Shown here piece after piece: positions 28,654-58,640 of a stretch of DNA of 64,000 nt. Position 1 is the stretch's first letter. Each line of letters begins with the position of its first letter. Position numbers and translations under genes: made by a program. The notes beneath the pieces are model-generated. The model did not search any database, was not told the origin of the DNA, and worked only from the letters and a program-made list of their open reading frames with translations. The stretch lies in assembly GCF_988243305.1 (NCBI RefSeq), contig NZ_OZ547136.1. The stretch is one strand, 5' to 3'.

Positions 28654-28730
28654 GGAGCGGTAGTTCAGTCGGTTAGAATACCTGCCTGTCACGCAGGGGG
28701 TCGCGGGTTCGAGTCCCGTCCGTTCCGCCA
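28654..28730 (+). tRNA. aspV: tRNA-Asp (GTC), the island-associated copy
   Basis: Sequence identical to the tRNA-Asp at 20432..20508; followed by a hairpin and T-run at about 28758..28790. Confidence 0.95.
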
Positions 28731-28757
28731 AATTCACTCATGAAAATGAGTTCAGAG

Positions 28758-28790
28758 AACCGCAAGATTTTTAATTTTGCGGTTTTTTTT
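28758..28790 (+). terminator. Rho-independent terminator after the tRNA-Asp
   Basis: agaaccgcaagatttttaattttgcggttttttttgc: stem ccgcaa/ttgcgg followed by T8. Confidence 0.7.
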
Positions 28791-29060
28791 GCATTTAAAT
28801 CCCGCTATTTCTTCGGTCTATGATTTTGTTATGCTGTAAATGTGTTAATCACATATGGTAGACCATATCATTAATATTTAATCATACTATCGAATCATTC
28901 AATTTAAATATATTTGCATGTTATGATTTTCATTTTTCTATTGATTTAATGAATTTATATTTGCTGTTATTTTTGTTTGTTCTGATTCAAGTGGAGTATA
29001 TAATTAAAAATCGTTAGCTAAACATTACCATGATTATGACAGGCGAGGGAGTGTCCGATT

Positions 29061-29846
29061 ATGAATTTAAGAAGGGTTTGTTGTATATGTGTATTATTCT
29101 CGCTGCTTGCAGGATGTGCCTCTGAATCTCCTATTGATGAAAAAAAGAAAAAAACTCAAACCGCACAAAGTTCTATTAATAAAAACGTTCCCCAGCAACT
29201 AACAGACAAAGATTTATATGGTAATGAAACCACACTGGCTGTATCCGAGGAGGATATTCAAGCTGCGCTTGAAGGAGATGAGTTTCGTGTGCCTCTTAAT
29301 TCTCCCGTTATACTTGTTCAGTCTGGCAGTCGCGCACCGGAAACCATTATGCAGGAGGAGATGAGAAAATATTATACAGTTGCCACATTTTCTGGCATTC
29401 CTGACAGGCAAAAACCTGTAACTTGTAATAAAGACAAAAACAAAGATGAAAGTCTGGATGTTGTAGATGCCGAAAATATGAACTGGATGCAGGCATTACG
29501 TTTTGTTGCGGCAAAAGGCCATCAGAAAGCGATTATTGTTTTCCAGGATACGTTGCAGACAGGAAAATATGACTCTGGATTGAAATCAATAGTTTGGTCA
29601 GATTATAAAAATCAAAAATTGACTGACACGATGTCACTGCGTTATTTGGTTCGATTCACGCTGGTGGATGTGGCTACAGGTGAGTGGGCTACCTGGTCGC
29701 CTGTGAATTATGAATCGAAAGTGATTTTTCCGCAGATAGGGAATAAAAATTCTGACAGCCTTGATGTGGCAGAACAGCAGATTTCACAACTTAAGCAGAA
29801 AACGTACGCAGCAGTGGTTAAAGATCTGGTGAATCGCTATCAGTAG
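29061..29846 (+). CDS. yafT: Lipoprotein YafT
   Basis: 261 aa ORF with lipoprotein signal peptide ([12 protein letters not shown]); AT-rich gene immediately after the tRNA-Asp. Confidence 0.75.
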
Positions 29847-30070
29847 TAAGGTTTTATACCAGACGTTTTAATGGTACTTAGCAAGAAAGAGCATTTTCTT
29901 TTCTATTTATACTCTGGTTCAAGTCTGCTAATTAATTCTACATATATATTTTTTTAGGAGTAGTAAAAAACTTTACTAAAGTTATTTATTGTTCTCTCAA
30001 CATATAAGCTGTAGTTCGAGTTTTCGGTTGAACTGTCAAAAATACATCATACACATCTATAAAACAGCAG

Positions 30071-30110
30071 GTACGGTTAATTAAGAATTTTTATTCGTGA
30101 TTAACCGTAC
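30071..30110. terminator. Hairpin terminator at the distal end of the minus-strand T6SS operon
   Basis: gtacggttaat...attaaccgtac: 11 bp perfect inverted repeat, with a U-run on the minus strand (ctgctgtttt) about 70 nt downstream of the hcp stop. Confidence 0.55.
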
Positions 30111-30182
30111 TTTATCATTTTATAATGTTAAATTGCCTTTTTAAAATATAACAATAATGCAGATGAAAAACGCCCAGGTAAC

Positions 30183-30662
30183 TTAGAAAATCCGTTCACT
30201 CCAAAGGCTGTACGCACTGGTTCCGGCGACGCTGTGCTCCCAGTTGATACTCTCATAGGTAAATGACACAGACTCTTCCGGCTGTCCTGGGCTGTCGTTA
30301 ATGGTATGGGGAACGGTAAGGCCGATGTTTGAGATCCGGGCGTTAGTCAGTTTCACCTTGTAGTACGGTTCATTAACACCAAAGCGGTTGGTGCGATAGA
30401 ATACAAAATCACAGGTCAGACATTCATTCTCCGAAATTGCCTTGCCCAGCAGGGGGGAAGATTTGTCCACCGGTTTCGTGATGGTCAGCTCCTGGTGGTT
30501 GACATTCTGCGCCCGGCTCAGACCATGGGACAGTGACGTCACCATGATCTGATCCTGATGTGCAATCTGGGCTTTGTTACCGATGGACGGCATTGACGAG
30601 CATCCGGATGAAATCAGCCCCTGAAGTTCTCCGTTCAGTGTCAGATAGACGGGATTTGCCAT
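30183..30662 (-). CDS. hcp: T6SS tube protein Hcp (TssD), distal divergent copy
   Basis: 159 aa from MANPVYLTLNGELQG with RBS AAGGAGAATAACA upstream; Hcp-like sequence. The upstream 129 codons of tracked ORF 30183..31049 overlap vasL out of frame and are not part of the gene. Confidence 0.8.
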   Translation of the reverse strand: MANPVYLTLNGELQGLISSGCSSMPSIGNKAQIAHQDQIMVTSLSHGLSRAQNVNHQELTITKPVDKSSPLLGKAISENECLTCDFVFYRTNRFGVNEPYYKVKLTNARISNIGLTVPHTINDSPGQPEESVSFTYESINWEHSVAGTSAYSLWSERIF

Positions 30663-47760: not shown

Positions 47761-49245
47761 TTATTCCTTATCCAGTCGTCCGACCAGGCTCAGGTCGAAA
47801 CTGGCACCCATGTATTTAAAATGCGGTCTGACAGAAATCGCGACCTGGTACCAGCCCGGCTCACCATCCACATCCAGTACCTCGATCTTAGCCTGACGCA
47901 AAGGCCGGTGGCTGCGGACTTCGGCAGGCGGATTTTCCTGGTCAGCAACATACTGGCGAATCCAGGTGTTCAGCTCACGCTCCAGGTCACTACGTTCTTT
48001 CCATGAGCCAAGCTGTTCGCGCTGAATTACCTTGATGTAATGCGCTAACCTGCTGATAACAAACAAGTATGGCAGCTGGGTGCCGAGTTTATAGTTGGTC
48101 TCCGCAGCCTTGCCTTCGGGGGTTTTGGGGAATGTTTTGGGTTTCTGCACCGAGTTGGCCGAGAAAAAGCACGCATTATCAGACCCTTTACGCATGGTCA
48201 GTGTGATAAAGCCCTCTTCCGCCAGCTCATACTCTCTCCGGTCAGTGATCAACACTTCAGTCGGAATTTTTGCCTGCATTTGCCCCATGGATTCATACAG
48301 ATGCACCGGGAGGTCTTTGACTGCGCCGCCGCTGGAAGGGCCAATAATATTTGGGCACCAGCGATACTTAGCAAAACTTTCCGCCAGGTTGGCGGCCAGT
48401 AAAAACGAGGTATTCCCCCACAGATAAGACTCATGACTCTGGCTGACATCTTCATGGTAACGGAAGGTTTTGACAGGGTTTTCATCCGGTGAGTAAGGGT
48501 GGCGCAGCAGGAACCGGGGGGCGGTCAGGCCCAGGTAACGGGAATCTTCCGATTCACGCAGGGCGCGCCAGCGGGAGTAGGCCGGGCCTTCAAAGATGGC
48601 ACCCGGTTCTTTGATCCCCGGTAACTCTGTCCATGAATCCAGACCGAAAAATTCGGATGATACTGACGACAGGAACGGGCTGTGCGCCATCGCGCTGACC
48701 TGGCTGATATATTTCAGCAACTTCATATCCGGCGTGGTGTTCTTAAAGGCAAAGTTGCCGATTACCGCCGCCACTGGCTCACCGCCAAATTGTCCGTAAC
48801 CGCTTGAATATACATGCTTGTAATACGCAGACTGCGTGATTTCAGGTGCAAATTCGAAATCATCCAGCAGTTCTTCCTGAGTGACATTCAGGAAATGGAC
48901 TTTGATGTTTTCCCGTGTATCCGCGCGTTCAACCAGCAGCTTCAGCGAGCGCAGCAGGGATTCCAGTTCCTGAAACTCCGGGGCATGAATAATGGCATCC
49001 ATCTGCCTGCTGGTTCGGGCATCAATATCAGCAATCATGGCGTCAACGGCCAGGATATTGATAGGTTCAGCGCTACTGTCGCCCTGTAACATGGCGGCAA
49101 TAAAGGCGCTCACGCCCTGGCGGGTGATATCGTAGCTTTCTGATTTAGGCTGGACGCGGGTTTGCGCCATGATTTCATCAAGCAGAGATGGGGGCGCGGC
49201 GGTTTGAGACGCGCTGACGGGAGCAATTTCTTCCTTTACTGACAT
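47761..49245 (-). CDS. tssC: T6SS contractile sheath large subunit TssC (VipB)
   Basis: 494 aa; highly conserved sheath protein length and position. Confidence 0.93.
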   Translation of the reverse strand: MSVKEEIAPVSASQTAAPPSLLDEIMAQTRVQPKSESYDITRQGVSAFIAAMLQGDSSAEPINILAVDAMIADIDARTSRQMDAIIHAPEFQELESLLRSLKLLVERADTRENIKVHFLNVTQEELLDDFEFAPEITQSAYYKHVYSSGYGQFGGEPVAAVIGNFAFKNTTPDMKLLKYISQVSAMAHSPFLSSVSSEFFGLDSWTELPGIKEPGAIFEGPAYSRWRALRESEDSRYLGLTAPRFLLRHPYSPDENPVKTFRYHEDVSQSHESYLWGNTSFLLAANLAESFAKYRWCPNIIGPSSGGAVKDLPVHLYESMGQMQAKIPTEVLITDRREYELAEEGFITLTMRKGSDNACFFSANSVQKPKTFPKTPEGKAAETNYKLGTQLPYLFVISRLAHYIKVIQREQLGSWKERSDLERELNTWIRQYVADQENPPAEVRSHRPLRQAKIEVLDVDGEPGWYQVAISVRPHFKYMGASFDLSLVGRLDKE

Positions 49246-49267
49246 ACTGAAAATCCTTCTGTGAAAA

Positions 49268-49771
49268 TTATTTCTGAACGGCGATACCCAGTTCCTGGAT
49301 CAGCTGCTCGCGGCTGTCTTCGTTTTCCAGTAGCGCCTGAAGTTGTGCGCGGAAGGCCGGAATATTGCCTAGTGGAGACTTAAGTGCGACCAGTGCCTCA
49401 CGCAGCTCCAGCAGGCGCTTTATTTCCGGCACCTGACTGGCAATATGGTCAGGAGAAAGGTCATCCATAGATTTGACTTTCAGGTTGACGTACATTTGCT
49501 CATTGGGAGCGTCACTGAGTTCAGCCGGAACAACAAACTCCCGTTCAATGTCAGCTTCTGAAATGACTGCGTTGAGGTTATAGCGGTTGATAGCAATGGC
49601 AGTTCGCTCATCCAACGGCGTGTTATCTGGTTTCCCTTTCAGATTGCCGGTGATCAATAAATTCAGCGGCAATTCGATATCAGCAGCCACCCCATCAACT
49701 TTTGGTGTATACCGAACGCTGATTCTTTCTTTCGGCGCGACACTGCCGCCATTGTTGTTCATTTTGCTCAT
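49268..49771 (-). CDS. tssB: T6SS contractile sheath small subunit TssB (VipA)
   Basis: About 167 aa from MSKMNNNGGSVAPKERISVRYTPK; first gene of the minus-strand operon. Confidence 0.9.
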   Translation of the reverse strand: MSKMNNNGGSVAPKERISVRYTPKVDGVAADIELPLNLLITGNLKGKPDNTPLDERTAIAINRYNLNAVISEADIEREFVVPAELSDAPNEQMYVNLKVKSMDDLSPDHIASQVPEIKRLLELREALVALKSPLGNIPAFRAQLQALLENEDSREQLIQELGIAVQK

Positions 49772-49822
49772 AAAAATGTTCCCGTTCAGGCCATGAGCAC
49801 AGCATTTTCGTACTGCATACAA

Positions 49823-50474
49823 ATACCGACAATACCGTTTCAGTGGCAGTTAGATAATGTAACCTTCTTTCTGTTGTGATCGGTATTCTACTCATGAAAT
49901 AAAATATTAAAAGAACTATTTATATTTTTGAAAGAGATGTATCCTTCATTATTAATACATGATAGTGAAATCAATTTTGGTATTTATAGACTTGGTGAAT
50001 ATAATTTTACGGCCAATAAAGTGCAATAACACATTGATTTATATGTGTTTATTAAATTGATTAATAAGTTTTGTGTATGGTTTTATAAATTAGTTAATTG
50101 CTAGCAATACATCATAAGAAATTCCTTTAAGGAATATCTTAATTGCGTGCAGGAACGATGGTGAAGTAAGTGTTGTAATAATTTATTTTTGACGAAACTG
50201 TAGGTTTTTATGGGGATAAGGATACGTTATGGATAATTCTACTGTTGATGTTGATATATTTTTAGCTTATGTGACCGTGTTCTGAAATTGACTAAAAATA
50301 TATTTAAACACCATAAAAGAGTTTTTCGGTAGGTGCTAATTACGTGTGCCTGTAACTCGAATAAAGAAAAGGGTGTGGTTCCTGATGTGAGCCGCATCAC
50401 ACTCTAACCTGTCGGGGATTAACGACGGGTTGTTCGTAAAAACAGCAGTTGATAATTTCACAAGGAGTTCACAA
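49823..50474. promoter_or_regulatory. AT-rich divergent control region between tssB (minus) and hcp-vgrG (plus)
   Basis: About 650-700 bp strongly AT-rich non-coding spacer between the two divergently transcribed T6SS units; contains a GATC at 49878..49881 and AT-rich tracts; no individual promoter elements confidently assigned. Confidence 0.6.
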
Positions 50475-50993
50475 ATGCCAACCCCATGTTACATTTCTAT
50501 TACGGGCCAGACCCAGGGGAACATCACTGCCGGTGCTTTCACCGCGGATTCTGTCGGCAATATCTACGTGCAGGGGCACGAAGATGAAATGCTGGTGCAG
50601 GAGTTTTTGCACAACGTTACTGTTCCAACCGATCCGCAGTCTGGCCAGCCTTCCGGCCAGCGCGCGCACAAACCGTTCATTTTCACCGTGGCGCTGAACA
50701 AAGCCGTTCCGCTGCTGTACAACGCGCTGGCCTCCGGTGAAATGCTGCCGAAAGTGGAGCTGCACTGGTGGCGTACTTCAGTTGAAGGCAAGCAGGAGCA
50801 CTACTTCACCACACGTCTTACTGACGCGACGATTGTGGACATGAACCTGCACATGCCGCACTGCCAGGACCCTGCACAGCGTGAGTTTACGCAATTGCTC
50901 GCAGTATCACTGGCATACCGTAAGGTTGAGTGGGAGCACATCAAATCCGGTACTTCTGGTGCCGATGACTGGCGTGCACCGCTGGAAGCATAA
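50475..50993 (+). CDS. hcp: T6SS tube protein Hcp (TssD), canonical copy
   Basis: 172 aa from MPTPCYISITGQTQGNITAGAF with RBS AAGGAG; strong resemblance to the canonical Hcp as remembered from V. cholerae. Confidence 0.92.
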   Translation: MPTPCYISITGQTQGNITAGAFTADSVGNIYVQGHEDEMLVQEFLHNVTVPTDPQSGQPSGQRAHKPFIFTVALNKAVPLLYNALASGEMLPKVELHWWRTSVEGKQEHYFTTRLTDATIVDMNLHMPHCQDPAQREFTQLLAVSLAYRKVEWEHIKSGTSGADDWRAPLEA

Positions 50994-51213
50994 ATCTGAG
51001 TCAACAACATCCTGCCTTCGTGCAGGATGTTGTTTTTGTACGTGTAAAAAATGAGTGTCAGTAAGGAGTTACGCTTTCATGAGGGAGATGGCGGATGCCG
51101 GAAACCCGGGCGGTAGCGTACCTGAAAATGTAAAGATGAGTGTAACGCTGCACTGGCACCCTTTGCTGCATGGTGAGAATCATTTGGTCCGTGAATAAAT
51201 CAGGGGGGTCATT

Positions 51214-53196
51214 ATGTCCTTAAAAGGTCTGCGCTTTACGCTGGAGGTTGACGGCCAGGAGCCGGACACCTTTGCAGTGGTGAATTTCAGGTTAATCCAG
51301 AACCAGTCATATCCGTTTGTGATGAGTGTGGATGTTGCCAGCGACTCTTTTATGCAGACGGCGGAGATGCTGCTGGAGAAGAAGGCGACACTGACCATCT
51401 GGCAGGGCGCAGTGGCGCAGCGTTATGTCACCGGCGTGGTGGCGGGTTTTGGCATGCAGGAGAATAACGGCTGGCAGATGCGTTATCACCTGCGTATTGA
51501 GCCGCCGTTATGGCGGTGCGGGCTGCGGCAGAACTTCCGTATCTTCCAGCAGCAGGATATCCGGACGATATCGGCCACGTTACTGAACGAGAACGGCGTC
51601 ACGGAGTGGACGCCGCTGTTTTATGAGGACCATCCGGCGCGGGAGTTCTGTGTCCAGTACGGGGAGTCGGACCTGGCGTTTCTGTCCCGGCTGTGGGCGG
51701 AGGAGGGAATTTTCTTCTTTGAGCGGTTTGCGGCGGACAGTCCGGAGCAGAAGCTGACGCTGTGCGACGATGTGGCGGGGCTGTCACAGGCGGGAGAGCT
51801 TCCGTTTAACCCGGACACATCGACAGGAGCGGAGACGGAGTGTGTCAGTATGTTCCGTTATGAGGCGCATGTCCGCCCGTCGTCGGTGCAGAGCCAGGAT
51901 TACACGTTTAAGGTGCCGGACTGGCCGGGGATGTATGAGCAGCAGGGTGAGAACCTGAACGGACAGCTGGCGCAGTATGAGATATTTGATTATCCGGGAA
52001 GGTTCAAGGACGAGCAGCACGGCAAGGATTTCACGCTGTACCAGATGGGCAGCCTGCGCAGTGATGCGGAAAAGGCCACAGGGCAGAGTAATTCACCGAA
52101 GCTGTGGCCGGGAACGCAGTTTACGCTGACGGGGCATCCGCAGAAGATGCTGAACCGTGAATGGCAGGTGGTACAGAGCATACTGTCAGGAAGCCAGCCG
52201 CAGGCGCTGCACGGCAGCCAGGGGAGAGGAACCACGCTGGGAAATCAGTTAGAGGTGATACCGGCAGACCGGACGTGGCGTCCACGGCTGCAAAGCAAAC
52301 CGAAGGTGGACGGGCCACAGAGCGCCATTGTCACCGGGCCTGCGGGAGAGGAAATCTTCTGCGACGAACATGGCCGGGTACGGGTGAAGTTCCACTGGGA
52401 CCGTTATCACGGGATGACGGAGGCGAGTTCATGCTGGGTGCGGGTATCGCAGGCGTGGGCGGGGCCGGGTTTCGGCAATCTGGCGATACCGCGGGTGGGT
52501 CAGGAGGTGATTGTTGATTTCCTGAACGGCGACCCGGACCAGCCGATAATCATGGGACGGACATACCATGAGGACAACCGTTCGCCGGGGAGTCTGCCGG
52601 GGACGAAGACGCAGATGACGATACGGTCGAAGACCTATAAAGGAAGCGGATTTAACGAACTGCGCTTTGAGGACGCCACAGATAAGGAACAGGTCTATAT
52701 TCACGCGCAGAAGAACATGGATACGGAAGTGCTGAATGACCGGACGACGGACGTGAAGCATGACCACACGGAAACCATTGGTAACGACCAGAAGATAACG
52801 GTGGGGTTGGGCCAGACGGTGAATGTGGGGAGCAAAAAGGAAGGTGGTCATGACCAGAAAGTGACGGTAGCGAACGATCAGCATCTCACGATAAAAAATG
52901 ACCGGCACAAGGTTGTAAATAACAACCAGACAAGCAAGGTGACGGGAACTGATACCGAAGAAGTCGTCAAAAAACAGAGTATTAAAATAGGTGATAATTA
53001 CGAACTGAAAGTTGAGCATGGTACAAAAATCATATCTGGGGACAGTATTGAGCTAATTTGTGGGCAGGGAGAGAGCGGGACTTGTTCCATAAAACTGGAG
53101 AAAACAGGAAAGATAATAATACGGGGGACGGAGTTTCTATTTGAGGCTACCGGTCCTGTAGATATTAAAGGAAAAGATATTCATCTGAACGGATAG
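51214..53196 (+). CDS. vgrG: T6SS spike protein VgrG (TssI), no C-terminal toxin extension
   Basis: 660 aa; gp27/gp5-like VgrG; C-terminal repeats (HDQKVTVANDQHLTIKNDRHKV); the 3' about 350 nt are visibly AT-richer than the rest. Confidence 0.92.
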   Translation: MSLKGLRFTLEVDGQEPDTFAVVNFRLIQNQSYPFVMSVDVASDSFMQTAEMLLEKKATLTIWQGAVAQRYVTGVVAGFGMQENNGWQMRYHLRIEPPLWRCGLRQNFRIFQQQDIRTISATLLNENGVTEWTPLFYEDHPAREFCVQYGESDLAFLSRLWAEEGIFFFERFAADSPEQKLTLCDDVAGLSQAGELPFNPDTSTGAETECVSMFRYEAHVRPSSVQSQDYTFKVPDWPGMYEQQGENLNGQLAQYEIFDYPGRFKDEQHGKDFTLYQMGSLRSDAEKATGQSNSPKLWPGTQFTLTGHPQKMLNREWQVVQSILSGSQPQALHGSQGRGTTLGNQLEVIPADRTWRPRLQSKPKVDGPQSAIVTGPAGEEIFCDEHGRVRVKFHWDRYHGMTEASSCWVRVSQAWAGPGFGNLAIPRVGQEVIVDFLNGDPDQPIIMGRTYHEDNRSPGSLPGTKTQMTIRSKTYKGSGFNELRFEDATDKEQVYIHAQKNMDTEVLNDRTTDVKHDHTETIGNDQKITVGLGQTVNVGSKKEGGHDQKVTVANDQHLTIKNDRHKVVNNNQTSKVTGTDTEEVVKKQSIKIGDNYELKVEHGTKIISGDSIELICGQGESGTCSIKLEKTGKIIIRGTEFLFEATGPVDIKGKDIHLNG

Positions 53197-53302
53197 TGCA
53201 GGATATAAAACATGGTGATTGTATTTGCTTTATACGCCTGTGAATCACCATTTGTGATTGTTTAAATTAATCATAGCATGACTTATTCAGGAATCAATAA
53301 GC

Positions 53303-54349
53303 ATGATAGAAATGAAAAATAACACACCATTTCCTTTGTTGTCATTTGAAAAATATGGTCGTTATGGTCTTTTGTTTGATGTTATTGCTATTAAAATGTC
53401 ATTGCGAATTAAAAATGGATTTTATGCTGATCTTGCTGAGTTTCAAAAAGAATTGTCCATGTCTGATGAATACTATGGGGAGTCTGAAACAAGTAGTCTA
53501 AAATCTGAAACAGACTTAGTTCTTTGTAAAAGAAATACAGATATTCACGTGACAGGTAGTGCTCATGCCCCTCCAGGGGATAAGTCTAAGTGGAAGGCTT
53601 GTGTGAGGGTTAATAGTTTTTCTAAAGAACTGAGTTTATCTGGTGTCCGCTACTTACAATATGAGCGAAATCGTTGGCAGATGAGCTTACCAGATAAAAT
53701 TATTAATGTTCCTCTACGCTATGAGCTTGCTTACGGTGGTATTTGGCAACCAGATGGTATGGAGAAATTGGTTTTTTCAGCAAACCCTGTAGGTTGTGGA
53801 TATTATCCTGATATTTCTCAACTTAATACAAGTTGTCAATATAAACTCCCACAAATAACCAGCTCTGCTTTGTCAGAAAACGCTACCATTTTTAATGGGG
53901 AATCTGACTTTTTTCAAGGTGTTGGCCCTGTATCTCGATGGTGGAAAAGTCGCCTCCAGTATGCAGGAACCTACAATGAAGTATGGCGTGAAAAGCGCTA
54001 TCCCTATTTGCCGGATGATTTTGATGAGCGGTTCTACAATAGTGCTCATCCGGATATGATATACACGGGGTTTCTCTCTGGCGATGAAAACATCTCTCTT
54101 GAAGGTTTTTTTAAATTTGAACAGGTTGTTAAGACAAAATTGCCAGGTATACGACCTGTACTTATATTAAAAACCAAGCATAATACATCACATATGTTCT
54201 TACCTGTTGCGGATACAATGGTTATCGATTTAAGTCGACAGGAAATATACCTTACCTGGAGATTAACAATACCTGATTTTTTTGGAATGAAAGAAGGAGT
54301 GCTGAGTTGTATTATTCCTGAATGTATAGGGAAAAAATATTATGGGTAA
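53303..54349 (+). CDS. Putative T6SS adaptor protein (DUF2169-like)
   Basis: 348 aa AT-rich gene immediately downstream of vgrG and translationally coupled (8 nt overlap) to a PAAR-like effector gene, the canonical DUF2169 context; assignment is by context and size, not verified by search. Confidence 0.5.
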   Translation: MIEMKNNTPFPLLSFEKYGRYGLLFDVIAIKMSLRIKNGFYADLAEFQKELSMSDEYYGESETSSLKSETDLVLCKRNTDIHVTGSAHAPPGDKSKWKACVRVNSFSKELSLSGVRYLQYERNRWQMSLPDKIINVPLRYELAYGGIWQPDGMEKLVFSANPVGCGYYPDISQLNTSCQYKLPQITSSALSENATIFNGESDFFQGVGPVSRWWKSRLQYAGTYNEVWREKRYPYLPDDFDERFYNSAHPDMIYTGFLSGDENISLEGFFKFEQVVKTKLPGIRPVLILKTKHNTSHMFLPVADTMVIDLSRQEIYLTWRLTIPDFFGMKEGVLSCIIPECIGKKYYG

Positions 54350-55382
54350 CTATCATATCGGGGATGGTGAATGTAGATTTAGAGTCGTGTGTTCTTCACC
54401 AGATGTATGTGAAGTAGGAGGTTACAAGGTTCCTTTTGACAGTTACCAGACTTTAGATAGTGAAAGACAGTACAGTTCAACGGTATGGGCGCGTGGATGC
54501 AGAGCTTTAAATGTTGGTTCAGTGATTGCTGGAACTCAAAGTAATGCCGGTAAAGGTGTCATATCCGGTACATCTCAAGGAACGGGTGACTGTGTTATTT
54601 TAACGGGAAGTCCGACTGTAACAATAGAAGGGAAACCTGTTGCTTATCATGGTTCAGTTGTTGGGATTAATAACCATAACTGCCTTGGTAAATTGTATAC
54701 CAAAATAAAATCACCAATGATTTCTGTCATTGATAAAACTTTTAGTTATGAAAGGACTGCTGAAGTAATACACGATTTACTGCTTCTGAAGGATCTCCTT
54801 TCTGTTGGGAATATTTTGGGCGGAGATATTTCACCTGAGGTTAAAAATGATTTATTTCAAATAAAAGATCCTGACCAATCATGGGGGGAGTTTTTTTCAA
54901 TAAAGAATATCAGAGAATCTCTCAGGAATGGTATTGAAGGAGATAAATCTCAGATCAGAGAATGGTTTGGAGAGAACACACTTACTCAAATGGGCAATGG
55001 AGCAATCACCACTTTACATGGTGTGGCGGATTTAGCCTTAGTTACATTCGATGCTCTGTTAGATACGGCAACGGCAACGGTTGCTTGCCCGATAGGCGAA
55101 GATGGGTTATGTGAACAGGCAAATATAAATTTAAATGAAAAAGAACAGGCTTTATTTAATATTAGTAATTCATTGATAAATGGGCAAGCATGGGATGCAC
55201 TTAAAAAAATGATAATGGATACAAATAATGGTGATCAGATTGCTCTGGAGCATTTTGCCAGCTTTTTATGGGGCTTTATGATACCCGCAAAAATACCAGA
55301 AGAAAATATCTCTGGGAAAGTATTTGTAGAGCCAGTAGTTTTAGAAGGTGGTGCTGGTGGCAATTGGACAGTATTTGATTAG
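54342..55382 (+). CDS. PAAR-like (DUF4150-type) T6SS effector, N-terminal and linker portion; ends at an in-frame TAG
   Basis: 346 aa; N-terminal about 125 aa with the DUF4150-like pattern (GTGDCVILTGSPTVTIEGKPVAYHGSVVGINNHNCLG); helical central region; the stop TAG at 55380..55382 is in frame with the following toxin-like ORF. Confidence 0.6.
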   Translation: MGNYHIGDGECRFRVVCSSPDVCEVGGYKVPFDSYQTLDSERQYSSTVWARGCRALNVGSVIAGTQSNAGKGVISGTSQGTGDCVILTGSPTVTIEGKPVAYHGSVVGINNHNCLGKLYTKIKSPMISVIDKTFSYERTAEVIHDLLLLKDLLSVGNILGGDISPEVKNDLFQIKDPDQSWGEFFSIKNIRESLRNGIEGDKSQIREWFGENTLTQMGNGAITTLHGVADLALVTFDALLDTATATVACPIGEDGLCEQANINLNEKEQALFNISNSLINGQAWDALKKMIMDTNNGDQIALEHFASFLWGFMIPAKIPEENISGKVFVEPVVLEGGAGGNWTVFD

Positions 55383-55409
55383 GTTTTAGATTCAAATGTA
55401 ATAAAGCAA

Positions 55410-55781
55410 TTGACTTTAACAGGCTGTGGAGCGGCCTGTGGGGAAATGTTGCTTAGGGATAGGTATATTTTTGTCACGCAAAATGTAATTGGAACAGAAT
55501 TAACATCTATGACGTCGCTGGCAAACAAGCTTAATAAATTTGATGTCGGCTGGGAAGGGAATGAAGTGAGCGAATCTAGTTTATATGCCCTCAGTAATAC
55601 TGGTTCATGGGGAGCAATGATGTGGGATTCTGGAAGTAAAGTAGGGCATTGGGTACTTGTTAAGGGTGTTGATGATGCTGGGAATGTGATAATATATGAT
55701 CCATATCAAGGGAGTCGATATCTGATGACTGAACAGGAATTTAAGGAGGTATGGAATGGGCATAGTGTTTACAAACCATAA
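55410..55781 (+). pseudogene. Papain/C39-like cysteine-peptidase toxin domain, in frame with the upstream PAAR ORF (split by one TAG codon)
   Basis: 123 codons with no ATG or RBS before the putative catalytic Cys (GCGAACGEMLL); His (GHWVLVKG) and Asp (DDAGNVIIYDP) complete a papain-like Cys-His-Asp order reminiscent of peptidase C39; continuous with ORF 54342..55382 except for one TAG. Confidence 0.45.
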
Positions 55782-56046
55782 TATTGATTTGTTATCGGTT
55801 GAATTTGATGAGATTACAAAAAATTGTAATTACACTTTTAGTGTAGATGGAGAGACGGCTATCTTTACTGCTAGAATATCAATAATAAGAAATATAAAGG
55901 GAATTAAATATAGCGAAGAACTTGATAAATTTATAATGTCAATAATGCCATTGCAGCCTAAAGTATCAAAAATTTTGGGAGGTGTTACTTGGGATTGTAT
56001 TTGTGGTAAGGAAGTTGGATTTCCTGTGAGATTAATTGGTAAGTGA
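55756..56046 (+). CDS. Candidate cognate immunity protein (cytoplasmic)
   Basis: 96 aa; strong RBS AAGGAGG 7 nt before the ATG; overlaps the last 26 nt of the toxin-domain ORF; no signal peptide. Confidence 0.5.
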   Translation: MGIVFTNHNIDLLSVEFDEITKNCNYTFSVDGETAIFTARISIIRNIKGIKYSEELDKFIMSIMPLQPKVSKILGGVTWDCICGKEVGFPVRLIGK

Positions 56047-56284
56047 AGGGTGGTGAGGTATTTCTATATTTTTTTTCGTGAAAGTCTTTAAAACTAAAAT
56101 TATCTTGTTGGGAGCCCAAGGTGAGATCATAAAACGTATTATTTTATAAATATTGTTATGCAGGGAAAGGTCAAGTAATGCTGCTTTTTTGTACTAAATA
56201 ATTCGCATTTTATGTTCAATAATTGAGGTGTTCCTTATTACCTAAAGCTGTTTTTCATTGCTTATACATGATCAAATACTCATT

Positions 56285-57130
56285 GCATAATTAAGGGGGC
56301 AAAATGGAACTTAAAAAATTGATGGAACATATTTCTGTTATCCCCGATTACAGGCAAGCCTGGAAAGTGGAACATAAATTGCCAGATATTCTATCTGTTA
56401 ACTATTTGCGCCGTTATTTCTGGTGCATAAGGCTGGGAAGATATAGAGGATTTGGGGAAACACATCTCGATTTTTTGAAGTGATATGGTGATTTTGAAAA
56501 TGGTATTCCTGTTCACGATATCATTGCCAGAGTTGTATCCTGTATCAGTCCTGCAAAATTTTACGAGTGCTTTATTAACTGGATGCGTGACTGTCATTCT
56601 TCAGATGATAAAGACATCATCGCAATTGATGGAAAAACGCTCCGGCACTCTTATGATAAAAGTCGTCAAAAGGGAGCAATTTATGTCATTAAAATCCGTC
56701 TTCATATTGTTTGCATGTCTCTGATGAATTTATTGATTTTACGTTTGAATGGAAAGGGCTGAAGAAATTATGCATGGCAGTCTCATTTCGCTCAATAATA
56801 GCAGAACAAAAGAAAAATCCCGAAATGACGGTCAGATATTATAGCATTTCTGCTGATTTAACCGCAGAGAAGTTCGCCACAGCGAACCGAAATCACTGGC
56901 AAGTGGAGAATAAATTGCACTGGCATCTGGACGTGGTAATGAATAAAGACGACTTCAAAATAAGAAGAGGAAATGCAGCAGAATTATTTTCAGGGATACG
57001 GAAGATCGCTATTAATATTTTAACGAAAGATAAGATAATCAAGGCAGGGGCAAGATGTAAGATGTGAAAAGCAGCTGCGGACAGAGACTACCTCGCGTCA
57101 GTCCTTGCGGGGGCGGGCTTTCGTAATCTT
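56285..57130 (+). pseudogene. ISAs1-family (H-repeat-associated) transposase, degenerate: frameshifts plus internal deletion
   Basis: Segments matching the N-terminus ([26 protein letters not shown]...GETHLDFLK), middle ([10 protein letters not shown]...[19 protein letters not shown]) and C-terminus ([12 protein letters not shown]...[18 protein letters not shown]...[20 protein letters not shown]) of H-repeat transposases in different frames, with about 120 codons missing from the middle. Confidence 0.75.
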
Positions 57131-57295
57131 GTTCTGCAAGGGATGATAAAAAGTGCAACTTTATTCCACGCAGCTATTTAGACAGCGTACAGTAAACAAA
57201 CGAAAGTTGTTATTTCAATGGTCAGGGCAAGAGCATGAAGTGTTTACTACACACTATGCTCTTGTCCTGGAGTCAGGTCTTGTCTGGAGGGATAA

Positions 57296-57799
57296 ATGGT
57301 AGATATTGTCGAGGCCGATAAAACGGATATTTATTTCATTCAGGAGAGTGTTTATGGCAAAATCGGGTTGCCAGCTTTGGGTAATACAATAGGACCATCC
57401 GCACAGCAAGTTGTTAAAAAGGTATTCGCTGTCGTTAAAGAACGAGATAAGACACATGCAAAACAGAGATTATTGTTGGAATATAATGGTAACAAACTCT
57501 GGATGAATGCTATTGATGGCAGTGAAGCTATCCTACCAACAGAATTTTCTAAGCGGTACGAACTTTCATTATTCAATACTACTAATTTTGGAGAAGATCC
57601 TTTTCCTGATGTTAATTTATATAATAATATGAAATCAAGTTTTTTTGTAAGGTTTGGTGGAACATCCCATCCCGAGGCTTGGGCTATTTATAATGCAAGT
57701 ACGAAAGAGGTTAAATATATAGAAACTGCAAGAGAAATTGATAAAATATTCAGTGATTTTAACTTGAGTGGTACATTGCCAATTCACATTGGTCAATGA
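57296..57799 (+). CDS. Hypothetical protein (cysteine-free, no signal peptide)
   Basis: 167 aa ORF with strong RBS (GGAGGG) 6 nt upstream; AT-rich; between the two ISAs1 fragments; no recognisable family. Confidence 0.45.
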   Translation: MVDIVEADKTDIYFIQESVYGKIGLPALGNTIGPSAQQVVKKVFAVVKERDKTHAKQRLLLEYNGNKLWMNAIDGSEAILPTEFSKRYELSLFNTTNFGEDPFPDVNLYNNMKSSFFVRFGGTSHPEAWAIYNASTKEVKYIETAREIDKIFSDFNLSGTLPIHIGQ

Positions 57800-57864
57800 T
57801 TTTTAAATTGTGTGATTAAATAATTGAACATTAATGATGATTTATAGCATCATTATTCTATAAC

Positions 57865-58377
57865 ATGAATAAACGGATTGAATGTGTTATGTTAAAAATG
57901 AGTTTATACGTAATAATATTGTTATTTTCCTTTCAGATTAGTGCAGCCATTACTAGCAAGGAAAGTGAGGTTGTTTCACCATTATTAATGGATGTTAATT
58001 CTTCACTAACAATGGAAAATATATCTGAATTATCCACATCATCGGAACCATCGCAACAGGGGGTATTTCCTGTAATATGTACTCGACTTCATCCTGGCTC
58101 CGTAATGAAACGCCAGTTATTAACCGGCTGGGGGCCTGTTTTTATAATTGGTGATGATCCTTTTTCTCTGCGCTGGATGAGTGAACATCTGGAGATCCTT
58201 AAATCGCTAAATGCCCTTGGTTTGGTTGTTAATGTTGAATCAGTAGAACGAATGGAGGTATTACAGCAGCGGGCTGATGGGTTATTGTTATTGCCAGTTA
58301 TCTGCGATAATTTCGTGCAAACTCTGCAATTAAATGCTTATCCGGTATTAATCACAGAGATGGAAATATCACAATGA
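57865..58377 (+). CDS. Hypothetical exported protein (signal peptide)
   Basis: 170 aa ORF with N-terminal signal-like segment (MLKMSLYVIILLFSFQISAAITS); AT-rich; no recognisable family. Confidence 0.45.
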   Translation: MNKRIECVMLKMSLYVIILLFSFQISAAITSKESEVVSPLLMDVNSSLTMENISELSTSSEPSQQGVFPVICTRLHPGSVMKRQLLTGWGPVFIIGDDPFSLRWMSEHLEILKSLNALGLVVNVESVERMEVLQQRADGLLLLPVICDNFVQTLQLNAYPVLITEMEISQ

Positions 58378-58394
58378 TTAATAACATAATTACT

Positions 58395-58640
58395 GCAAAT
58401 AATATCGTAATTTTGAAAATGGTAATCCTGTTCACGACACCATAATTAGAGTTATGTCTTGTATCCGTTCAGTATAATTTCACGAATGCTTTATTAACTG
58501 GATGCGAGATTGCCATTCATCAAATGATAAAGACGTCATCGCAATTGATGGAAAAGCGCTTCCACACTCCTATGATAAAAGTGGTCGCAGGAGAGCGGGC
58601 TTTCGTAGTCATACCCCGACTCTCCCCAGCCCTAAACACA
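58395..58640 (+). pseudogene. yafF: ISAs1-family (H-repeat) transposase fragment, second copy (yafF-like remnant)
   Basis: About 220 bp direct repeat of 56490..56700 encoding FENGNPVHDTI...[35 protein letters not shown], adjacent to yafV. Confidence 0.7.

What the first reader, a model, noticed from the sequence alone, without database searches (positions are those of the whole stretch)
49823..50474. Long AT-rich divergent promoter region controlling both T6SS transcription units
An untranslated, strongly AT-rich spacer of about 700 bp separates the tssB start (minus) from the hcp start (plus). Its length and composition are typical of nucleoid-protein-silenced horizontally acquired promoters. 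It contains a GATC (49878..49881) and degenerate Fur-box-like tracts (for example around 49850 and 49960), reminiscent of the Fur/Dam control described for an enteroaggregative E. coli T6SS promoter, but these matches are weak.
Basis: inference. Interest (0 to 1): 0.45.

Follow-up and report, generated by a model that had tools for sequence, protein, structure and literature searches.

The report
Silenced two-way T6SS promoter spacer
This is the known AT-rich two-way promoter region between the tssB and hcp genes of an E. coli type VI secretion island, kept silent by the H-NS protein in related strains, and the suggested iron/methylation (Fur/Dam) control is not supported.

Summary
The spacer is real. 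It runs 49772-50474 (703 bp, 32% GC against 51% for the window) between tssB (minus, ATG 49771) and hcp (plus, ATG 50475). It holds no conserved ORF and no Rfam match.

It is the bidirectional promoter region of the E. coli aspV-island T6SS. Homologous regions in EHEC, APEC and Shigella sonnei have been studied. They are H-NS-repressed, and the APEC system is unaffected by fur deletion or iron limitation.

The Fur-like tracts (best 12/19) and the single GATC occur at chance frequency.

A long (374-1065 bp), AT-rich (28-38% GC) tssB-hcp spacer is conserved in 36 other loci across Enterobacterales. The spacer has three zones:
- A fast-evolving, unalignable centre, where only composition and length are kept.
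- A conserved tssB promoter (-10 TAGAAT, 49890-49885) with a ~107-nt leader.
- A ~105-nt or longer hcp leader with a covarying hairpin (50406-50431). Its loop carries GGA in 15 of 17 species, ~46 nt upstream of the AAGGAG ribosome-binding site. This is a predicted CsrA site, in line with reported CsrA repression of hcp3 in EHEC.

Verdict: the main finding is already known. The leader hairpin is a modest new detail.

The parts
49772..50474 (.). Whole tssB-hcp intergenic region (703 bp, 32.3% GC)
   Evidence: Unannotated in all 552 E. coli genomes that carry it at 90% identity or more.
49268..49771 (-). tssB coding sequence (start ATG 49771, not the upstream TTG at 49822)
   Evidence: PGAP annotation of a 99.7%-identical strain. 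The ATGAG start is invariant in 17 homologues.
50475..50993 (+). hcp coding sequence
   Evidence: The protein is 81-100% identical in the 80 retained loci.
49772..49878 (-). Predicted tssB 5' leader (~107 nt) with a conserved long-range helix (ACGGUA / UGCUGU, flanked by CCA / UGG)
   Evidence: RNAalifold on 14 species. 94% of cells are paired against 25-42% when the partners are slid, but only 1 compensatory pair. The single-sequence fold is not significant (z -0.08). The transcription start is inferred from the -10, not mapped.
49878..49881 (.). The only GATC. It lies at the predicted tssB transcription start, 4 nt downstream of the -10
   Evidence: Conserved within the window-type E. coli allele. 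Absent from Sakai and most of the other species aligned.
49885..49890 (-). Predicted tssB promoter -10 hexamer, TAGAAT
   Evidence: A TAnnAT hexamer sits at the same aligned position in 17 of 17 species.
49907..49912 (-). -35-like hexamer TTTTAA, 16 bp upstream of the -10. It lies within a conserved A-rich/CTTtT block (49909-49923)
   Evidence: The match to consensus is weak (3/6); the assignment is an inference.
49931..49944 (-). Conserved upstream block GGATACATCTCTTT (about -45 to -65 from the predicted start). Possible regulator site, factor unknown
   Evidence: The ATAC..CT.T.T columns are 85% or more conserved in 17 species.
49951..50340 (.). Central AT-rich variable spacer. Proposed H-NS nucleation and spreading platform
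   Evidence: 45% identity to the Sakai allele, about the level of unrelated AT-rich DNA. It is 90-95% identical within window-type E. coli, against 96-99% for the flanking leaders. TpA steps and A/T tracts are 2.3-2.5 times the window average. Sites similar to the H-NS motif number 4, against 1.9 expected (P 0.12).
50121..50139 (.). Perfect palindrome ATTCCTT-T-AAGGAAT (50121-50135), overlapping the conserved block TTTAAGGAATATCT (50126-50139)
   Evidence: I7. The block recurs about 320-350 nt upstream of hcp in the Sakai allele, C. sedlakii, E. albertii and Lelliottia. It is not an RcsAB box by ungapped match.
50288..50331 (+). Conserved block upstream of the hcp leader (TTGACT ... TAAA ... 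GTTTTT). Candidate region for the hcp core promoter, not resolved
   Evidence: Conservation rises here (0.46-0.53 against 0.28 just upstream). No convincing -35/-10 pair with correct spacing was found.
50372..50398 (+). hcp leader hairpin P1 (GGUGUGG / CCGCAUC)
   Evidence: 75-77% of cells are paired and 5 of 7 pairs have compensatory changes. Present in the window's minimum-energy fold. Support is moderate.
50406..50431 (+). hcp leader hairpin P2. The 9-bp stem is 50406-50414 / 50423-50431. The loop is GGGAUUAA (50415-50422) with GGA at 50416-50418. Predicted CsrA site
   Evidence: RNAalifold predicts it. 92% of cells are paired, against 31-52% when the partners are slid. 5 of 9 pairs have compensatory changes, and 0 of 500 shuffles reach the covariation score. 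With 32 distinct sequences, 90% are paired. The sense strand is 92% paired against 79% for the antisense, and GGA is in the loop in 15 of 17 species.
50462..50467 (+). Shine-Dalgarno AAGGAG of hcp. It carries a second GGA about 46 nt downstream of the loop GGA
   Evidence: GGA invariant. An A(N)GGA motif 8 nt from the hcp3 ATG is noted in PMC13141884.

Best explanation
The region is the bidirectional control region of the aspV-island type VI secretion system (the system the EHEC and APEC papers call 'T6SS-2'). It has three functional zones.

1. A central spacer of about 390 bp (~27% GC). Its sequence is free to vary, but its AT-richness and length are maintained. It most likely acts as a platform on which H-NS nucleates and spreads or bridges. 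That would keep both outward-facing promoters silent under laboratory conditions.

2. On the tssB side, a conserved sigma-70-type core promoter (-10 TAGAAT at 49890-49885, a weak -35, an A-rich upstream tract and a conserved upstream block). It would start a ~107-nt conserved leader.

3. On the hcp side, a promoter somewhere upstream of 50372. It feeds a leader of 105 nt or more that folds into two hairpins. The second hairpin presents GGA in its loop, about 46 nt upstream of the AAGGAG ribosome-binding site. This is the classic two-site arrangement bound by a CsrA dimer, so hcp is probably also held down after transcription.

Shown here: anatomy, composition, conservation pattern and hairpin covariation. 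Taken from published work on homologous loci: H-NS repression, Fur-independence and the CsrA effect. Inferred: the H-NS platform role of the centre, the transcription start positions and CsrA binding to the hairpin.
For: Anatomy and composition.

The architecture is conserved. 36 other loci in Escherichia, Citrobacter, Lelliottia, Buttiauxella, Rahnella, Trabulsiella, Yersinia, Xenorhabdus and others have divergent tssB-hcp. Their spacers are 374-1065 bp (median 640 bp) at 28-38% GC, against ~51% in the flanking genes.

Three-zone conservation.

H-NS:
- hns deletion derepresses the EHEC cluster up to 60-fold (PMC5363993).
- H-NS is reported bound to the tssB-hcp3 spacer, with several transcription starts (PMC13141884).
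- hns inactivation raises clpV2, hcp2A and hcp2B in APEC, while fur deletion and iron limitation have no effect (PMC5874247).
- The S. sonnei spacer was used as a two-way promoter reporter (PMC10924462).

tssB -10 conserved in 17 of 17 species.

hcp leader hairpin. A within-E. coli polymorphism, T50410C, turns a U.G pair into C-G.

CsrA: tssC and hcp3 are reported to be negatively regulated by CsrA in EHEC (Wang et al. 2017, as cited in PMC13141884).
Against: - No experiment was done on this allele. The window's spacer is only ~45-62% identical, by zone, to the EHEC Sakai spacer that was studied. Transfer of the H-NS binding and start-site data therefore rests on homology and shared composition.
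- Matches to the H-NS high-affinity motif are not significantly enriched over composition-matched shuffles (4 against 1.9, P 0.12).
- The hcp core promoter could not be located.
- The tssB -35 is weak.
- The tssB leader helix has only one compensatory pair, and the single-sequence fold is not significant.
- The CsrA link is indirect. Two of 17 species lack GGA in the loop.
- I could not read the primary CsrA transcriptome paper, Kim et al. 2022 or Brunet et al. 2015.
Confidence: 0.75

Rival explanations
1. A Fur/Dam epigenetic switch like the EAEC sci1 promoter. Fur boxes overlapping GATC sites would make expression respond to iron and methylation.
For: One GATC (49878-81) lies at the predicted tssB transcription start. 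Fur-like 19-mers reach 11-12/19. Fur does regulate other E. coli T6SSs, namely EAEC sci1 and APEC T6SS1.
Against: The best Fur match (12/19) is equalled or beaten in 87% of shuffles, and the site counts equal expectation. One GATC is seen against 1.4 expected, and it overlaps no Fur-like site. The GATC is not conserved in the Sakai allele or in most of the other species aligned. In APEC TW-XM, iron limitation and fur deletion did not change clpV2 or hcp2B of this T6SS type.
Confidence: 0.04
2. A passive spacer. Two ordinary, independent promoters sit next to their genes, and the AT-rich centre is unconstrained DNA drifting towards AT with no regulatory role. H-NS effects would be indirect or incidental.
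For: The centre is unalignable between alleles (45% identity) and evolves fastest within the allele. It has no significant motif enrichment. The weak promoter-like hexamers scattered through it are what AT-rich DNA gives by chance (3 found against 3.4 expected).
Against: Both length and low GC are maintained in 36 other loci across several genera, although bacterial genomes tend to delete unconstrained DNA (established knowledge). H-NS is reported to bind the EHEC spacer, and hns loss gives up to 60-fold derepression. One central block (50126-50139) is positionally conserved in at least five lineages.
Confidence: 0.15
3. The spacer hides an unannotated gene, either a small protein or a small RNA.
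For: Four ORFs of 33-53 aa lie in it. The region is never annotated in any genome.
Against: None of the ORFs is conserved beyond E. whittamii, and one is frame-shifted there. There is no Rfam match at E<=1 inside the spacer. The conserved, structured parts adjoin the tssB and hcp start codons and fit mRNA leaders.
Confidence: 0.04
4. A sigma-54/enhancer-binding-protein promoter, as for hcp in Vibrio-, Aeromonas- and Pseudomonas-type T6SSs.
For: Other hcp loci pulled from metagenomes carry textbook TGGCAC-N5-TTGC promoters roughly 50-70 nt upstream of hcp (L091, L116, L155).
Against: No GG-N10-GC site with flanking consensus exists in the spacer (best 4/11). No enhancer-binding-protein gene is annotated in the cluster.
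Confidence: 0.02

Closest known systems
EHEC O157:H7 T6SS bidirectional promoter 't6sP' between tssB (z0264) and hcp3 (PMC13141884; Kim, Lee & Yoon 2022, J Microbiol 60:928; Wan et al. 2016/2017)
   Same: Same chromosomal site (aspV-yafV island), the same divergent tssB/hcp layout, a ~700-bp spacer (696 against 703 bp) and ~33% GC. It shares the tssB -10, the leader hairpins, the GGA loop and the AAGGAG site. It also has a terminator after hcp.
   Different: It belongs to a deeply diverged allele. TssB is 56% identical at protein level, the tssB gene 60% and the spacer centre 45% at DNA level. The window-type allele is in 552 of 5426 complete E. coli genomes, against 2236 for the Sakai type. 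The window allele lacks 12 nt of the tssB leader that carry the usual GACGGA ribosome-binding site.
APEC TW-XM 'T6SS2' divergent vipA2-...-hcp2A and hcp2B-vgrG2 units (PMC5874247)
   Same: The same T6SS type, and the same hcp-vgrG-DUF2169-PAAR-like effector layout as the window. It is repressed by H-NS and unaffected by Fur or iron. A duck APEC isolate, DE17, carries the window-type spacer at 95.5% identity.
   Different: I could not confirm that TW-XM itself carries this allele. The paper did not map promoters or leaders.
EAEC sci1 (T6SS-1) Fur/Dam switch (Brunet et al. 2011, 2020, as cited in PMC10482370)
   Same: A T6SS promoter in E. coli that contains a GATC and AT-rich Fur-like sequence.
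   Different: It is a different T6SS family with a different promoter. The overlapping Fur-box/GATC arrangement that defines it is absent here. The matching APEC system is Fur-independent.
H-NS silencing of Salmonella SPI-6 T6SS (Brunet et al. 2015, as cited)
   Same: A horizontally acquired enterobacterial T6SS island silenced by H-NS.
   Different: It is a different gene order and did not appear among the 80 best Hcp loci. The paper could not be read, so no detailed comparison was made.
CsrA/RsmA-controlled mRNA leaders (E. coli glgC and pgaA; P. aeruginosa T6SS mRNAs bound by RsmA, as cited in PMC13141884 and PMC10482370)
   Same: One GGA sits in the loop of a short hairpin and a second GGA lies inside the Shine-Dalgarno sequence. 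They are about 46 nt apart, within the 10-63 nt range a CsrA dimer is known to bridge (from my own knowledge of Mercante et al. 2009). EHEC hcp3 is reported to be CsrA-repressed.
   Different: No binding data exist for this leader. The loop context (CGGGGAUUAAC) matches the SELEX consensus RUACARGGAUGU only in GGAU.

Membership tests
H-NS-silenced, horizontally acquired promoter region | AT content well above that of the host genome and flanking genes | tested here: met
   32.3% GC, against 51.3% for the window and ~50-56% for flanking tssB and hcp. It holds the lowest-GC 300-bp and 500-bp stretches in 64 kb.
H-NS-silenced, horizontally acquired promoter region | High-affinity nucleation motifs (tCGATAAATT-like), TpA steps and A-tracts | tested here: inconclusive
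   Four sites match at 8/10 or better, against 1.9 in shuffles (P 0.12). Density is 5.7 per kb, against 1.4 per kb across the window. TpA steps and A/T tracts are 2.3-2.5 times the window average.
H-NS-silenced, horizontally acquired promoter region | H-NS occupancy, and derepression when hns is deleted | not testable with these tools
   Reported for the homologous EHEC spacer and cluster and for APEC T6SS2. Not shown for this allele.
Bidirectional (divergent) promoter region | Two outward-facing first genes of operons, with promoter elements for each in the spacer | tested here: met
   tssB (minus) and hcp (plus) are divergent. The tssB -10 is conserved in 17 of 17 species. The hcp promoter is bounded to upstream of 50372 but not pinpointed. 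The EHEC and S. sonnei spacers have been treated or used as two-way promoters.
Fur/Dam switch of the EAEC sci1 type | Fur boxes matching the 19-bp consensus better than composition predicts | tested here: not met
   Best match 12/19, with P(shuffle>=12) = 0.87. Sites at 11/19 or better: 13 against 12.7 expected.
Fur/Dam switch of the EAEC sci1 type | GATC sites overlapping the Fur boxes and the -10 | tested here: not met
   The single GATC (49878-81) overlaps no Fur-like site and lies 4 nt downstream of the -10. It is not conserved outside the allele.
Fur/Dam switch of the EAEC sci1 type | Derepression by iron limitation or fur deletion | not testable with these tools
   Reported negative for the same T6SS type in APEC TW-XM.
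CsrA-regulated leader | At least two GGA motifs, one in a hairpin loop and one overlapping the Shine-Dalgarno, spaced within dimer reach | tested here: met
   GGA at 50416-18 lies in the P2 loop (15 of 17 species) and GGA at 50464-66 lies in AAGGAG (invariant). They are ~46 nt apart.
CsrA-regulated leader | Direct CsrA binding and CsrA-dependent translation or stability | not testable with these tools
   The only evidence is a transcriptome report that hcp3 and tssC rise when CsrA is impaired in EHEC (cited in PMC13141884).
Conserved structured RNA element | Base pairs maintained by compensatory changes, and strand-specific | tested here: met
   For P2, 5 of 9 pairs have double changes. 90-92% of cells are paired, against 31-52% when the partners are slid, and 0 of 500 shuffles reach the covariation score. 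The sense strand is 92% paired against 79% for the antisense. P1 is weaker (75-77%). The tssB leader helix is weak (1 compensatory pair).
Sigma-54 dependent hcp promoter | TGGCAC-N5-TTGC at -24/-12 | tested here: not met
   The best candidate scores 4/11. True examples are seen in unrelated metagenomic hcp loci.
RcsAB/RcsB box | A 14-bp TaAGaatatTCctA match above chance | tested here: not met
   Best match 10/14 in the window (P 0.77), with no consistent match across the other loci.

The most novel reading that the evidence does not exclude
The hcp mRNA of this widespread enterobacterial T6SS lineage carries a conserved two-hairpin leader. Its GGA-loop hairpin (50406-50431), together with the GGA-containing ribosome-binding site, would form a CsrA switch. 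Hcp, the tube subunit needed in largest amounts, would then be gated after transcription, independently of H-NS. This could help explain why relieving H-NS gives mRNA but poor or incomplete protein output in EHEC. The leader is not in Rfam, and I found no description of it in the papers I could search.
Probability: 0.4. Interest if true: 0.45.

Novelty: already known. Interest (0 to 1): 0.22.

Why it matters
This T6SS type is carried by about half of complete E. coli genomes: 552 have the window-type spacer and 2236 the Sakai type, out of 5426. It is silent in the laboratory, which has blocked study of its role in EHEC, APEC/ExPEC and Shigella.

The main point, an H-NS-silenced two-way promoter, is already in the literature, so the finding itself adds little. 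Three things here may be useful:
- A clear negative for Fur/Dam control.
- A map of which parts of the spacer are under sequence constraint: the tssB core promoter, both leaders and one central block.
- A testable candidate for the post-transcriptional brake on hcp that recent EHEC work suspects but has not located.

Tried and rejected
- Fur consensus scan with dinucleotide shuffles: chance level.
- GATC count: chance level.
- H-NS motif scan: enriched against the window, but not significantly against composition-matched shuffles.
- Sigma-70 consensus scans: 3 sites against 3.4 expected. A laxer scan gave 22 weak candidates. The best consensus match (TTGGTA-17-TATAAT, 49977-50005) lies in the least conserved part and is probably spurious.
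- hcp core promoter: not resolved. TTGACT at 50288-93 has no correctly spaced -10.
- Sigma-54 scan: negative.
- RcsAB-box scan, prompted by the 50115-50141 palindrome and by reports of RcsB control of T6SS: negative.
- Rfam at E<=1: only two chance miRNA hits, both outside the spacer.
- Small ORFs: not conserved.
- Repeat search: no mobile-element remnants, only short AT-rich repeats.
- tssB leader structure: a consistent helix but little covariation, and the single-sequence fold is not significant.
- Covariance model of the hcp leader: finds the motif only in this clade (18 of 82 sources strongly, 4 weakly). A metagenome scan added about 9 new variants.
- Papers I could not obtain: Kim et al. 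2022, Brunet et al. 2015, and the supplementary start-site tables of Sy et al. 2020.

Full report
**What is there**

The window is E. coli chromosome. The spacer matches 552 of 5426 complete E. coli genomes at 90% identity or more, always on the chromosome and never annotated. In a 99.7%-identical strain the surrounding genes are a complete type VI secretion cluster. On the minus strand it runs tssB-tssC-tssE-tssF-tssG-tagH-tssJ-tssK-tssL-tssH-vasI-tssA-tssM-vasL-hcp. On the plus strand it runs hcp-vgrG-effector genes. The cluster ends at yafV. In the window, tRNA-Asp (aspV) lies at 28654-28730. O157:H7 Sakai has a T6SS island at the same aspV-yafV site.

**Checking the observation**

- tssB starts at ATG 49771, not at the upstream TTG 49822 that bounds the longest ORF. 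PGAP nt, and ATGAG is invariant in 17 homologues.
- hcp starts at ATG 50475, behind an AAGGAG site at 50462-67.
- The spacer is therefore 49772-50474, 703 bp.
- GC is 32.3%, against 51.3% for the window. The lowest-GC 300-bp and 500-bp stretches of the whole window lie inside it.
- There is exactly one GATC, at 49878-81.
- Fur-like tracts near 49850 and 49960 exist (11/19 and 12/19). However, a 12/19 best match is reached in 87% of dinucleotide-preserving shuffles. Sites at 11/19 or better number 13, against 12.7 expected. One GATC is seen, against 1.4 expected.
- The four 33-53-aa ORFs inside the spacer are not conserved beyond E. whittamii, and one is frame-shifted there.
- Rfam gives nothing inside the spacer at E<=1.

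**Published work on homologous loci**

- A 2026 paper on EHEC EDL933 calls the tssB-hcp3 spacer the 'bidirectional promoter' (t6sP). It states that H-NS is bound there and that a 2022 study found several transcription starts. The authors replaced it with Ptac/PBAD (PMC13141884).
- hns deletion raises EHEC T6SS transcripts, with z0264 up 60-fold (PMC5363993).
- In S. sonnei the same spacer was cloned in both orientations as a promoter reporter, and was also replaced by inducible promoters (PMC10924462).
- In APEC TW-XM the 'T6SS2' cluster has divergent vipA2...hcp2A and hcp2B-vgrG2-DUF2169-effector units, the layout seen in the window. Inactivating H-NS raised clpV2, hcp2A and hcp2B. Iron limitation and fur deletion did not change clpV2 or hcp2B (PMC5874247).

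Together with the chance-level scans, this removes the Fur/Dam idea. The Fur-regulated E. coli systems (EAEC sci1, APEC T6SS1) belong to a different T6SS family.

**This allele is not the one studied in EHEC**

The window and Sakai spacers align poorly. DNA identity by zone:

| Zone | Identity to Sakai |
|---|---|
| tssB gene | 60% |
| tssB leader | 62% |
| Spacer centre | 45% |
| hcp leader | 59% |
| hcp gene | 83% |

At protein level TssB is 56% identical and Hcp 94%. So E. coli holds two old lineages of this island at one site. The Sakai type is in 2236 genomes and the window type in 552. The window type includes UPEC, bloodstream and duck APEC isolates. Transferring the EHEC binding data to this allele is an inference from homology and shared composition.

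**The architecture is conserved**

A scan of one genome per species with Hcp kept 80 loci. In 36 other loci tssB lies divergently upstream of hcp. These span Escherichia, Citrobacter, Lelliottia, Buttiauxella, Rahnella, Trabulsiella, Yersinia, Xenorhabdus and other genera. Their spacers are 374-1065 bp (median 640 bp) at 28-38% GC, while the flanking genes average ~51%. Length and AT-richness are therefore maintained features of this T6SS lineage. They are not a leftover of recent transfer into E. coli.

**Three zones in the spacer**

Conservation across 17 alignable species is high next to both genes and low in the middle. Within window-type E. coli the centre (49951-50340) is 90-95% identical. 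The two flanks are 96-99% identical and the genes about 97%.

*tssB side.* In the tssB sense, every one of the 17 species has a TAnnAT hexamer at the same aligned position; in the window it is TAGAAT, 49890-49885. It is preceded by:
- a weak -35 (TTTTAA, 49912-49907, 16-bp spacer);
- a conserved A-rich/CTTtT block (49923-49909);
- a conserved block GGATACATCTCTTT (49944-49931).

This predicts a start near 49878, inside the GATC, and a ~107-nt leader. The leader has a conserved helix that is 94% paired, against 25-42% in slid controls. It has only one compensatory pair, and the single-sequence fold is not significant. I rate that structure as weakly supported.

*hcp side.* RNAalifold predicts a hairpin at 50406-50431. 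On 17 species:
- the 9-bp stem is 92% paired, against 31-52% when the partners are slid;
- 5 of 9 pairs show changes on both sides;
- no shuffle out of 500 reaches the covariation score.

It holds up with 32 distinct sequences, including metagenomic variants (90% paired). Pairing is better on the hcp-sense strand than on the antisense (92% against 79%), because of 23 G.U pairs. This argues for an RNA element rather than a DNA operator. A polymorphism within E. coli, T50410C, converts a U.G pair to C-G. The loop carries GGA in 15 of 17 species.

A second, upstream hairpin (50372-50398) is moderately supported (75-77% paired, 5 of 7 pairs compensatory). The window's leader folds into both hairpins at -38.1 kcal/mol, z -2.2.

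The hcp start must therefore lie upstream of 50372. A conserved block at 50288-50331 is the likely promoter region, but I could not assign a convincing -35/-10 pair.

**How it most likely works**

The centre, constrained only in composition and length, fits a platform for H-NS nucleation and spreading or bridging over two weak outward promoters. TpA steps and A/T tracts are 2.3-2.5 times the window average. H-NS-motif matches are 4 times denser than in the window, but not significantly above composition-matched shuffles.

A GGA in a hairpin loop, plus a GGA inside the ribosome-binding site about 46 nt away, is the standard arrangement for a CsrA dimer. The EHEC paper cites a transcriptome study in which tssC and hcp3 are negatively regulated by CsrA. 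It notes A(N)GGA motifs 8 nt from the start codons, but it does not describe the hairpin. I therefore propose CsrA-dependent translational repression of hcp as a second layer. This step is inferred.

hcp is followed at once by a 13-bp perfect-stem hairpin and a short U run (51003-51037; z -3.0). This matches the terminator of the EHEC 'h3R' region, where hcp3 and vgrG3 are separate operons. So this spacer probably controls the tssB operon and hcp. vgrG and the effector genes have further control of their own. In APEC, by contrast, RT-PCR linked hcp2B through xmtV as one operon.

**Rejected rivals**

- Fur/Dam switch: see above.
- Sigma-54 promoter: no -24/-12 site. True TGGCAC-N5-TTGC promoters do sit upstream of hcp in unrelated metagenomic loci.
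- RcsAB box: the palindrome at 50115-50141 suggested it, but ungapped matches are at chance level.
- Hidden gene.
- Passive spacer: the conserved length and composition across genera, and the reported H-NS binding, argue against it. It is not excluded for this allele.

**Verdict**

The general interpretation is right and already published for homologous loci. The Fur/Dam part is wrong. The covarying GGA-loop hairpin in the hcp leader and the mapped constraint pattern are modest additions.

Noticed in passing
window 47761-53196 against L002 29237-35004: E. coli carries two deeply diverged lineages of the T6SS island at the same aspV-yafV site. TssB is 56% identical at protein level, and tssB, tssC and vgrG are 57-67% identical at DNA level. 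Hcp stays 94% identical (83% DNA). The Sakai type is in 2236 and the window type in 552 of 5426 complete genomes.
   Followed up: partly
window 51003-51037 (+): A perfect 13-bp-stem hairpin followed by a U run lies immediately after the hcp stop codon (z -3.0). It is very likely an intrinsic terminator and matches 'region I' of the EHEC h3R element. The simple terminator scan missed it.
   Followed up: partly
window 49772-49790 (-): The window-type tssB leader lacks 12 nt that are present in the Sakai allele. Most of the other species aligned carry a longer segment here. The missing stretch carries the usual GACGGA/GATGGA ribosome-binding site, leaving ACGGGAAC instead. E. whittamii and a Pseudocitrobacter MAG share the deletion.
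   Followed up: no
window 50121-50139: The perfect palindrome ATTCCTT-T-AAGGAAT overlaps a block, TTTAAGGAATATCT. The block is positionally conserved (~320-350 nt upstream of hcp) in the Sakai allele, C. sedlakii, E. albertii and Lelliottia, within an otherwise unalignable centre. It may be a site for an unknown regulator. It is not an RcsAB box by ungapped match.
   Followed up: partly
L091, L116, L155, L158 (metagenome contigs), roughly 50-70 nt upstream of hcp: Other hcp genes with the same N-terminal sequence are preceded by textbook sigma-54 promoters (for example CTGGCACGCAAATTGCT) and lack the hairpin leader. The same highly conserved Hcp is thus wired to quite different control regions in different lineages.
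   Followed up: no
L005, L006, L007, L015, L017, about 115-150 nt upstream of hcp: Citrobacter- and Buttiauxella-type leaders seem to have a further hairpin (for example ATCCG...CGGAT or GTATTTGG...CCGAATAC) upstream of P1. The two E. coli alleles lack it. This suggests that the hcp transcript starts further upstream than 50372. Seen by eye only.
   Followed up: no
L083 (tssC), L084 (hcp, vgrG), L085 (vgrG): Three of the four window-type E. coli sampled have frameshifted or truncated T6SS genes next to the spacer. This hints at frequent decay of the silent system.
   Followed up: no
window 28700-30400 and 53200-58400: Two further low-GC tracts (32-41% GC). One lies next to aspV at the island's edge. 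The other covers the DUF2169/PAAR-like effector and downstream genes. Both are typical of acquired cargo and are likely further H-NS targets.
   Followed up: no
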